Positions 16,051-17,432 of a DNA stretch of 64,000 nucleotides are shown here, in pieces. This DNA is from Octopus vulgaris. Its lineage: Eukaryota. Position 1 is the stretch's first letter; each line of letters begins with the position of its first letter. A program made the translations under genes and the position numbers. The stretch is from positions 3,162,001-3,226,000 of the forward strand of contig OX597840.1 of NCBI GenBank assembly GCA_951406725.2, given 5' to 3'. The notes below the pieces were generated by a model, which searched no databases, was not told the DNA's origin, and worked only from the letters and a program-made list of their open reading frames with translations.

Positions 16051-16195
16051 TATTTCTTTATTGCCCACAAGGAGCTAAACACAGAGGGGGACAAACAAGG
16101 ACAGACAAAGGGGTTAAGTCGATTACATCGACCCCAGTGCGAAACTGGTACTTTATTTATCGACCCCGAAAGGATGAAAGGCAAAGTCGACCTCG

Positions 16196-16199
<4 letters not shown>
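16051..16199 (-). mobile_element. Single 5'-truncated tailed SINE-B unit in a (TA)n tract
   Basis: Same tail (GTGGGCAATAAAGAAATA on minus strand) and body as the array units. Confidence 0.85.
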
Positions 16200-16243
<44 letters not shown>

Positions 16244-16302
16244 ATGTGTGTATATATATATATATATGTGTGTGTGTATGTGTGTATAAATATGTATATG
16301 TG

Positions 16303-16350
<48 letters not shown>

Positions 16351-16424
16351 GGGTGGCGAATATTCGTTATAAATATCACCACCCAGTGGCCTAGCATGTA
16401 TAAAAAGTCAATAGACAACATATT

Positions 16425-16665
16425 CGTATTTCAAAATAGAAAATTACCCTTTAACAGGTAATTTTTACATGCTAGAAATAGCAGCCAACACGGCCAAAAA
16501 CCACAATTTTATAGCAAATTTCGAAGTAAATGAAAAATAAGTAAAGGTTTTTATTTTTCATTTACTTCGAAATTTGCTATAAAATTGTGGTTTTTTGGCC
16601 GTGTGGCTGCTATTTCTAGCATGTAAAAATTACCTGTTAAAGGATAATTTTCTATTTTGAAATAC

Positions 16666-16667
<2 letters not shown>
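16425..16667. mobile_element. Near-perfect ~240-bp palindrome (fold-back MITE)
   Basis: Arms CGTATTTCAAAATAGAAAATTA..GAAAAATAA and its reverse complement, separated by a ~10-nt loop; TA-rich flanks. Confidence 0.8.
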
Positions 16668-16716
<49 letters not shown>

Positions 16717-16816
16717 CACAGACAGAGAGACAGACACACAGACAGACTGACAGACAGGCAGGCAGGCAGGCAGGCAGATGGATGGAGAGATAGAGAAATG
16801 GATCGATGGATCGACT

Positions 16817-16864
<48 letters not shown>

Positions 16865-16887
16865 TGGATAGAAAGATAGATAGATAG

Positions 16888-17432
16888 ATTTCTCTACTAC
16901 CCACAAGGGGGCTAAACATAGAGGGGACAAACAAGGACAGACAAACGGATTAAGTCGATTATATCGACCCCAGTGCGTAACTGGTACTTAATTTATCGAC
17001 CCGAAAGAATGAAAGGCAAAGTCGGCCTCGGCGGAATTTGAACTCAGAACGTAACGGCAGACGAAATACCTATTTCTTTACTACCCACCGGGGGCTAAAC
17101 ACAGAGGGGACAAACAAGGACAGACAAACGGATTAAGTCGATTATATCGACCCCAGTGCGTAACTGGTACTTAATTTAATCGACCCCGAAAGGATGAAAG
17201 GTAAAGTCGACCTCAGCGGAATTTGAACTCAGAACGTAACGGCAGACGAAATACCTATTTCTTTACTACCCACAAGGGGCTAAACACAGAGGGGACAAAC
17301 AAAGACAGACATAGGTATTAAGTCGAATACATCGACTCCAGTACTCAACTGGTACTTAATTTATCGACCCTGAAAGGATGAAAAGCAAAGTCGACCTCAA
17401 CGGAATTTGAACTCAGAACGTAACGGCAATCG
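16888..17432 (-). mobile_element. Three-unit tandem array of the tailed SINE-B derivative inside a (GATA)n tract
   Basis: Three ~185-bp units joined at AAAGAAATA|GGTATTTCGTCTGCC (minus strand); GATA repeats on both sides. Confidence 0.9.

What the first reader, a model, noticed from the sequence alone, without database searches (positions are those of the whole stretch)
16051..17432. The 184-bp unit shares its 3' tail with the GATA-associated Tx1-like LINE (candidate SINE-LINE partner pair)
Seen: unit tail CCTTGT---TTGTCCCCTCTGTGTTTAGCCCCTTGTGGGCAATAAAGAAA aligns with LINE tail CCTTGTAACTTGTCCCATCTGTGTGCAGCCCTGTGTGGCCAATAAAGAAA. The trimer at 16888-17432 sits in a (GATA)n tract in the same orientation as the LINE copies; a monomer sits in (TA)n. 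Established: SINEs are often mobilised by LINEs sharing their 3' end. Inference: SINE-B captured a Tx1-type tail and switched to a target-selective motor; SINE partners of Tx1-clade LINEs are rarely described.
Basis: partly seen in the sequence, partly recalled or inferred. Interest (0 to 1): 0.75.

Follow-up and report, generated by a model that had tools for sequence, protein, structure and literature searches.

The report
Octopus SINE carrying Tx1-type LINE tail
A short, non-coding repeat unit, likely from an octopus, ends in the same roughly 45-50 bases as a GATA-seeking LINE retrotransposon nearby, so it is likely copied by that LINE lineage's enzymes, and some of its copies sit at one fixed spot inside older copies of its own family, where they would regain a promoter.

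Summary
The tail match is real. The unit's last 41-50 nt align with the 3' end of five LINE pieces, well beyond shuffles, also without the AATAAAGAAA end. The LINE's closest relatives have endonuclease + RT + zf-RVT and score higher against named Tx1 proteins than against human L1, but form their own branch.
- The quoted unit tail is a composite. Real copies match the LINE at 77% on average, with 6 fixed differences, so the true partner is probably a sister family.
- No shared stem-loop or covariation was found.
- Targeting is loose: of 3 stand-alone insertions, one is in GATA, one in TA and one in unique DNA with a 16-bp duplication.
New here: the 184-bp unit is a headless piece (B box, no A box) of the octopus tRNA-CORE-type SINE. 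At 3 of 3 headed loci, young units (90% alike) sit between old heads (71%) and old remainders (79%), split at GGTATT. This suggests insertion into its own family's heads. One window only; the genome-wide flank test failed.

The parts
16889..17437 (-). Trimer of headless SINE units (B box + central domain + LINE-type tail) inside a GATA tract; 5' end truncated
   Evidence: B boxes at 17412, 17228, 17043 and no A box
16053..16196 (-). 5'-truncated monomer in (TA)n; no B box left
16053..16101 (-). Shared tail of the monomer (score 48 against the LINE tail, the best of 14 units)
14950..15709 (+). Four-unit array in non-microsatellite DNA. A 16-nt direct repeat at 14950 and 15694 is likely a target-site duplication; it recurs at 15309 and 15501, which implies later local duplication
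37473..38200 (+). Old SINE head (A box at 37483) + three young units (37519-38070) + old remainder starting at GGTAT (end approximate)
38411..38941 (+). Old head (A box at 38423) + two young units (38460-38825) + remainder (38828-38941) cut off by the next head
38943..39345 (+). Old head (A-box motif degenerate) + one young unit (38991-39173) + short extra GAAGAA at the junction + old remainder with the other tail type
6995..7620 (-). 5'-truncated L1/Tx1-group LINE: ORF2 C-terminus (7620-7399, stop 7398-7396), U-rich 3' UTR and tail; 5' junction in TATC repeats
6786..6987 (-). LINE 3' UTR piece; the shared tail is 6786-6835, followed by a long TATC run (5' end approximate)
7668..7893 (-). LINE 3' UTR piece between TATC runs
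7929..8194 (-). LINE 3' UTR piece between TATC runs; may be a local duplicate of 7668-7893
25581..25767 (-). Separate LINE 3' UTR piece with TATC runs on both sides

Best explanation
The 184-bp unit is a headless piece of a likely octopus tRNA-derived SINE whose last 45-50 bases match the 3' end of a GATA-inserting L1/Tx1-group LINE, and it is likely copied by the enzymes of that LINE lineage, probably a sister family of the one in this window. Inferred steps: (1) a SINE of the abundant family swapped its old tail for the LINE tail by template switching; (2) the LINE protein recognises this tail and starts reverse transcription a few bases after AAAGAAA; (3) in trans the target choice is looser than the LINE's own, falling on TAT-containing sites: (TATC)n, (TA)n and GTATT; (4) dimers and trimers move as one RNA, since the units have almost no T4 terminator; (5) GTATT also occurs between the A and B boxes of the family's own head, so units land inside older SINEs, where the host A box plus the unit's B box would restore a Pol III promoter. 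Shown: the tail homology, the LINE's domain class (through relatives), the junction sequences and the age contrast. Steps 1-5 are not shown.
For: Tail homology is beyond shuffles and both elements end at the same base. The LINE fragment is 66-71% identical to RT/zf-RVT proteins. Its full-length relative P0104 scores 287-315 bits against 4 proteins named YTX2 or TX1 and 175 against human L1 ORF2. Retroposition marks: 5' truncation at 16196 and 17437, and a 16-nt flanking direct repeat at 14950/15694. In 3 of 3 arrays with at least 3 units the first two units are the same two subtypes in the same order, and within-array identity (0.916) is barely above between-array identity (0.896). There is 1 run of four or more T in four arrays totalling 2300 nt, against 12 in the 401-nt LINE UTR and 0 in the shared 50 nt. 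Heads of the 3 headed loci are 101/142 identical to each other and remainders 158/201, but first units 313/348. L1-Tx1 has recently active families in O. vulgaris (PMC13282606).
Against: Only 77% identity, with 6 fixed differences, to the LINE family present. No consensus structure. A 4-bp hairpin fits the unit copies but has 0 compensatory changes and does not beat its shuffles; single folds gave z from +1.4 to -1.8. Only 1 of 3 stand-alone insertions is in GATA, and GATA/TATC runs with margins cover 3.2% of this window, so the enrichment is modest. The tree does not nest the LINE inside the named Tx1 group (support 0.09-0.5 at the joining nodes), and one unnamed vertebrate-L1-like protein scores 263 bits. 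The three nested loci lie within 2 kb of each other, the pairs in the identity test are not independent, and the remainder at 38828 starts with unit-like letters. No unit with a young head of its own was seen.
Confidence: 0.62

Rival explanations
1. The tail is a LINE relic, but the units spread mainly at the DNA level (tandem duplication, unequal or ectopic recombination into homologous SINEs), or ride inside composites moved by the older ATT-tail motor.
For: The 14950-15709 array shows local duplication that includes the flanking repeat. Snake SINE satellites also start between boxes A and B (PMC10702118 passages). Tandem SINEs occur in bivalves (PMC11481361 passages). The three headed loci end in remainders of other SINE copies.
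Against: Stand-alone copies end exactly at the tail, with truncated 5' ends and a 16-nt duplication. In 2 of 3 nested loci the remainder is old-type from its first bases, where recombination would scatter the crossover over about 130 nt. Heads and remainders differ by 21-29% while the units differ by about 10%.
Confidence: 0.17
2. The real partner is a LINE of another clade, and the match to this Tx1-type family is second-hand.
For: 77% identity; no genome was held to search for a better match. Known mollusc partners are CR1, CR1-Zenon, L2 and Nimb (PMC11481361), and O. vulgaris has tRNA-CORE-RTE families.
Against: The match is collinear to the last base of a LINE with an L1/Tx1-type ORF2. Identities of 72-95% over 35-61 bp are accepted for partners in bivalves.
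Confidence: 0.09
3. The transfer ran the other way: the LINE family picked up its last 50 nt from the SINE.
For: Nothing here polarises the transfer, and the units are abundant.
Against: The segment is contiguous with the LINE's UTR and carries an AATAAA signal, which the units often lose (AGTAAA). Other copies of the SINE family lack the segment.
Confidence: 0.07
4. Chance or convergence of T/G/C-rich low-complexity ends with a poly(A)-signal motif.
For: A TG-rich 24-nt stretch of an unrelated repeat family also hits the 5' part of the tail weakly (E 0.003-0.01).
Against: Shuffle tests with and without the A-rich end; identical end position.
Confidence: 0.03

Closest known systems
Octopus OR1/OR2 tRNA-CORE SINEs (Ohshima and Okada 1994; paper not held; named as CORE-SINEs in PMC4824008, PMC4758252 and PMC5804259 passages)
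   Same: tRNA-like head with A/B boxes, a shared central domain and several tail types in an octopus-like genome; tRNA-Core is a main octopus SINE class (PMC8967140).
   Different: I could not compare with the OR1/OR2 consensus, so this unit may already be one of them. No Tx1-type tail or headless self-inserting multimer was seen in the passages read.
SINE/LINE shared-tail pairs (for example UnaSINE/UnaL2, MIR/L2; Table S1 of PMC3472496)
   Same: A 3' segment of about 50 nt shared with a LINE; tail exchange on a conserved body.
   Different: That table has 0 hits for Tx1, octopus, OR1 or OR2. The L1-clade pairs named in the text are from maize/sorghum and Chlamydomonas. No conserved stem-loop was found here.
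SINEU and Tx1-Mar of crocodilians (PMC4494074, passages)
   Same: A SINE thought to be moved by Tx1-clade LINEs, with target preference and frequent tandem insertion.
   Different: In the passages read, SINEU is linked to Tx1 by shared targets, ages and snRNA heads, not by a shared tail. Its target is a Mariner element; here the head is tRNA-like.
Microsatellite-targeting Tx1 elements Kibi (TC)n, Koshi (TTC)n and crocodilian (TTCC)n/(TTTC)n families (PMC4494074)
   Same: APE-type LINE of the L1/Tx1 group found as truncated copies inside a simple repeat.
   Different: The target here is (TATC/GATA)n, and the octopus-like lineage forms its own branch. One search listed no paper on a GATA-targeting Tx1.
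SINE-derived satellites of squamates (PMC10702118, passages)
   Same: Tandem units that begin between box A and box B of a tRNA head.
   Different: Those units cover head and body only. Here each unit includes the LINE-type tail, and short multimers are dispersed with insertion marks.

Membership tests
tRNA-derived SINE | Pol III A and B boxes in a tRNA-like head | tested here: inconclusive
   B box in 13 of 14 units; A box only in the old heads at 37483 and 38423, none in the finding's own copies. ARAGORN and Rfam found nothing in the window.
tRNA-derived SINE | Short, non-coding, dispersed, with retroposition marks | tested here: met
   14 units at 6 loci on both strands, 5' truncations and one 16-nt flanking duplication; 183,746 and 91,617 contigs laid in two runs.
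CORE-SINE superfamily (OR1/OR2) | Central domain homologous to the CORE consensus | not testable with these tools
   No CORE or OR consensus could be reached. The CORE label is recalled resemblance plus the literature statement that octopus SINEs are mainly tRNA-Core and tRNA-Deu.
Stringent SINE-LINE pair | Homologous 3' ends | tested here: met
Stringent SINE-LINE pair | Conserved 3' stem-loop with compensatory changes | tested here: not met
   0 consensus pairs; 0 double changes in a 4-bp hairpin; few and similar sequences, so power is low.
Stringent SINE-LINE pair | Trans-mobilisation depends on the tail | not testable with these tools
   needs a cell assay
L1/Tx1 group LINE | ORF2 with AP endonuclease + RT + C-terminal zinc motif | tested here: met
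   Shown on relatives, not on the window piece, which has no Pfam hit of its own. P0003 has RVT_1 and zf-RVT; top full-length relatives carry PF03372, PF00078 and PF13966; best solved match is L1 ORF2p.
Tx1 clade (strict) | RT groups with named Tx1 elements apart from L1 | tested here: inconclusive
   Higher scores to named Tx1 (287-315 bits) than to human L1 (175), but its own branch with unresolved deep nodes in a 61-protein, 422-column FastTree. The named references are automatic labels.
Tx1 clade (strict) | Target-sequence preference | tested here: met
   5 of 5 LINE 3' ends are followed by TATC (4 as runs), and the 4 5' junctions printed lie in TATC runs; four of the five copies are in one cluster.

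The most novel reading that the evidence does not exclude
A headless, self-targeting SINE module that hijacks a GATA-specific Tx1-type LINE through a captured tail and inserts at GTATT between the A and B boxes of older SINEs of its own family. Each such hit rebuilds a Pol III promoter and makes a new multimeric source gene, which would explain the fixed 184-bp unit. It would be an animal SINE with an L1/Tx1-derived tail, which the searches here did not find in print, and a case of promoter capture by target choice.
Probability: 0.3. Interest if true: 0.75.

Novelty: new variant of a known kind. Interest (0 to 1): 0.52.

Why it matters
Shared SINE/LINE tails are textbook, but the catalogued animal partners are L2, CR1, RTE, I/Nimb and similar clades, and animal L1-type enzymes are thought to read poly(A) rather than a specific tail. 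An octopus SINE with an L1/Tx1-group tail would give a natural test of stringent RNA recognition in that group and of how target specificity relaxes in trans. If the nesting at the SINE head holds genome-wide, it explains how a promoter-less unit keeps spreading, and it would change how part of the large octopus SINE fraction is annotated and dated.

Tried and rejected
- Own genome: none held.
- Scans for LINE relatives or the tail pattern in viral, metagenome and prokaryote collections found nothing, so no full-length LINE DNA or outside flanks were obtained.
- Earlier-findings look-ups were empty.
- Read laying on 15800-16196: reads were cut at 16028-16065, exactly the tail junction, so the genome-wide flank test failed. 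The two raw-read runs gave only 7 and 76 reads. In X24 three loose ends (7-13 reads each) show a tail directly in front of shorter units, which I do not use as evidence. Summed contig depth is not copy number.
- Shared stem-loop: rejected for lack of support.
- Strict GATA targeting of the SINE: not supported (1 of 3).
- Arrays as recent homogenised satellites: rejected except for part of 14950-15709.
- The first duplication search began one base too early and was redone.
- Cluster look-ups gave no Tx1 or L1 names, and the atlas gave only generic RT clusters.
- The SPLASH preprint was irrelevant.

Full report
Setting. The window is microsatellite-rich animal DNA. The only named close hit of the LINE fragment is an Octopus bimaculoides protein, 95% identical over half of the 74-aa query, so the source is likely an octopus. 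No whole genome was held. All counts below are from this one window unless stated.

Observation. BLAST of the unit found 14 tail-bearing units at 6 loci, many copies of the same SINE body with other tails, and hits at four of the LINE ends; the motif list in the same call gave the fifth. Local alignment scores of unit tail against LINE tail were 48, 42 and 31 for the 3 pairs tested, and none of 5000 dinucleotide shuffles reached them. A window-wide control gave 48 against a maximum of 35 in 300 shuffles. Removing the final 10 nt left 0, 5, 2 and 0 of 5000 shuffles at or above the score for 4 copies. Nine stretches around other-tailed copies scored 11-19. The similarity is therefore real. However, the string quoted for the unit is a composite with no exact copy. 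Twelve of the 14 units (two with indels left out) match 4 of the 5 LINE tails (one with an indel left out) at 30-33 of 41 bases, mean 77%, with 6 fixed differences. Units are 90% alike among themselves and LINE copies 94%.

The LINE. The piece 7620-6995 (-) holds the last 74 codons of an ORF, a U-rich UTR and the tail; four more pieces hold UTR and tail only. All 5 ends are followed by TATC (4 as runs), and the 4 5' junctions printed lie in TATC runs. Four copies form one cluster, so independent events may be as few as three. The fragment has no Pfam hit itself, but its relatives carry RT and zf-RVT, and full-length relatives add the endonuclease. The nearest full-length relative, P0104 (72% over 65 aa), scores 175 bits against human L1 ORF2, 287-315 against four proteins automatically named YTX2 or TX1, and 263 and 188 against two unnamed proteins that I used as L1-like roots. 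One of those two scores 479 against human L1; the other was not tested. In a FastTree of 61 selected proteins the lineage is a clade of its own (1.0), with unresolved links to the named Tx1 group. L1/Tx1 group is firm; Tx1 in the strict sense is likely but not shown.

The unit. Each unit begins at GGTATT and carries a B box (13 of 14 units) but no A box, then the central domain, then the tail. The CORE label is recalled, not tested. Other copies of the family carry different tails: 12 of 17 are followed by trinucleotide repeats and 0 of 17 by GATA. Read data show this other tail as a top loose end in two contig runs. In the three arrays with at least 3 units, the first two units are the same two subtypes in the same order, and identity within arrays (0.916, 13 pairs) is close to that between arrays (0.896, 78 pairs). 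I infer that short multimers move as a whole. The units have almost no T4 run, while the LINE UTR upstream of the shared part has 12, which fits a Pol III transcript keeping only the terminator-free end (inference).

Insertion sites. There are three stand-alone loci: the trimer in TATC on both sides, the monomer in TA on both sides, and the array at 14950-15709 bounded by a 16-nt direct repeat that begins GTATT. GATA/TATC runs with margins cover 3.2% of the window, so one hit in three, in the right orientation, is suggestive only (about 3-5% by my estimate). The other three loci are head + units + remainder. Their heads are 101/142 identical pairwise, remainders 158/201 and first units 313/348 over the shared body; old stand-alone copies give 75% for heads. 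The contrast holds on transversions alone. In 2 of 3 loci the remainder has old-type letters from its first bases. So young units sit inside old SINE shells split at GGTATT. Caveats: n = 3, all within 2 kb, pairs not independent, and no separate consensus for a young head was available.

Structure. RNAalifold on 19 tails predicted 0 pairs. A 4-bp hairpin named by me is 92% paired over 15 distinct rows, but has no compensatory change, does not beat its shuffles, and is out of register in the LINE rows. Single folds were not better than shuffles except one copy (z -1.8).

Mechanism. Best reading (0.62): tail capture from, and mobilisation by, this LINE lineage, with looser target choice in trans and insertion into the family's own heads. 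The exact motor is probably a sister family. Rivals: DNA-level spread or carriage by the older tail's motor (0.17), a partner from another clade (0.09), reverse transfer (0.07), chance (0.03).

What is known. Seen as passages: PMC4824008, PMC4758252, PMC3747384, PMC3472496, PMC4494074, PMC8967140, PMC11481361, PMC3531059, PMC5804259, PMC10702118. Seen as part 1 of 3 of the text: PMC13282606, plus a supplement search (56). Table S1 of PMC3472496: part 1 of 2 read (63) and the whole file searched, with 0 hits for Tx1, octopus, OR1 or OR2 (86). Not seen: Ohshima and Okada 1994 (84), SINEBase supplements (62), one supplementary file each of two papers (64, 88), Repbase and Dfam. Ten searches listed no report of an octopus SINE with a Tx1 tail or of a GATA-targeting Tx1. 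The library lacks most subscription papers and Repbase Reports, so absence from print is not shown. The nearest precedent is SINEU with Tx1-Mar, linked by target and heads.

Verdict. New variant of a known kind; interest 0.52.

Noticed in passing
window 37473-39345 (+): Young tail-bearing units are nested between old heads and old remainders at GGTATT in 3 of 3 headed loci.
   Followed up: yes
window 14950-15709 (+): A 16-nt target-like repeat bounds the array and has been carried into later units, two of which look like hybrids of the two unit subtypes: local duplication after insertion.
   Followed up: partly
window 33050-36300, 39597-40560, 45520-45760, 48600-49075, 27340-27470: Older copies of the same SINE body with at least two other tail types, mostly ending in ATT- or GTT-type repeats and often stacked, a new head starting in the previous copy's repeat tail. 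Their partner LINE was not sought.
   Followed up: partly
window 2625-3070 (+), 39950-40280 (+), 46600-47000 (-): A second repeat family with an internal (TA)n/(TG)n tract; a TG-rich 24-nt stretch weakly resembles the 5' part of the unit tail (E 0.003-0.01).
   Followed up: partly
window 6836-6860 (-) versus the other-type SINE tails: The LINE UTR just upstream of the shared tail and the other SINE tail both show a C-run, an A-run and then CCTTGT; scores were at background, so probably chance.
   Followed up: partly
window 6786-8194 (-): Four truncated LINE ends are stacked in one GATA tract, separated by short TATC runs; two may be a local 261-bp duplicate.
   Followed up: partly
run X24 on window 16105, 16124, 16153: Loose ends show a tail placed directly before shorter units, meaning other unit lengths exist in that organism; only 76 reads were laid.
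   Followed up: no
window 16352-16660: Between the monomer and the trimer lies a long imperfect palindrome (about 16430-16660) next to a short unique stretch; it looks like a MITE-type element.
   Followed up: no
window 50542-50880 and 59108-59446: A 339-nt inverted pair, 90% alike, likely two copies of another dispersed repeat.
   Followed up: no
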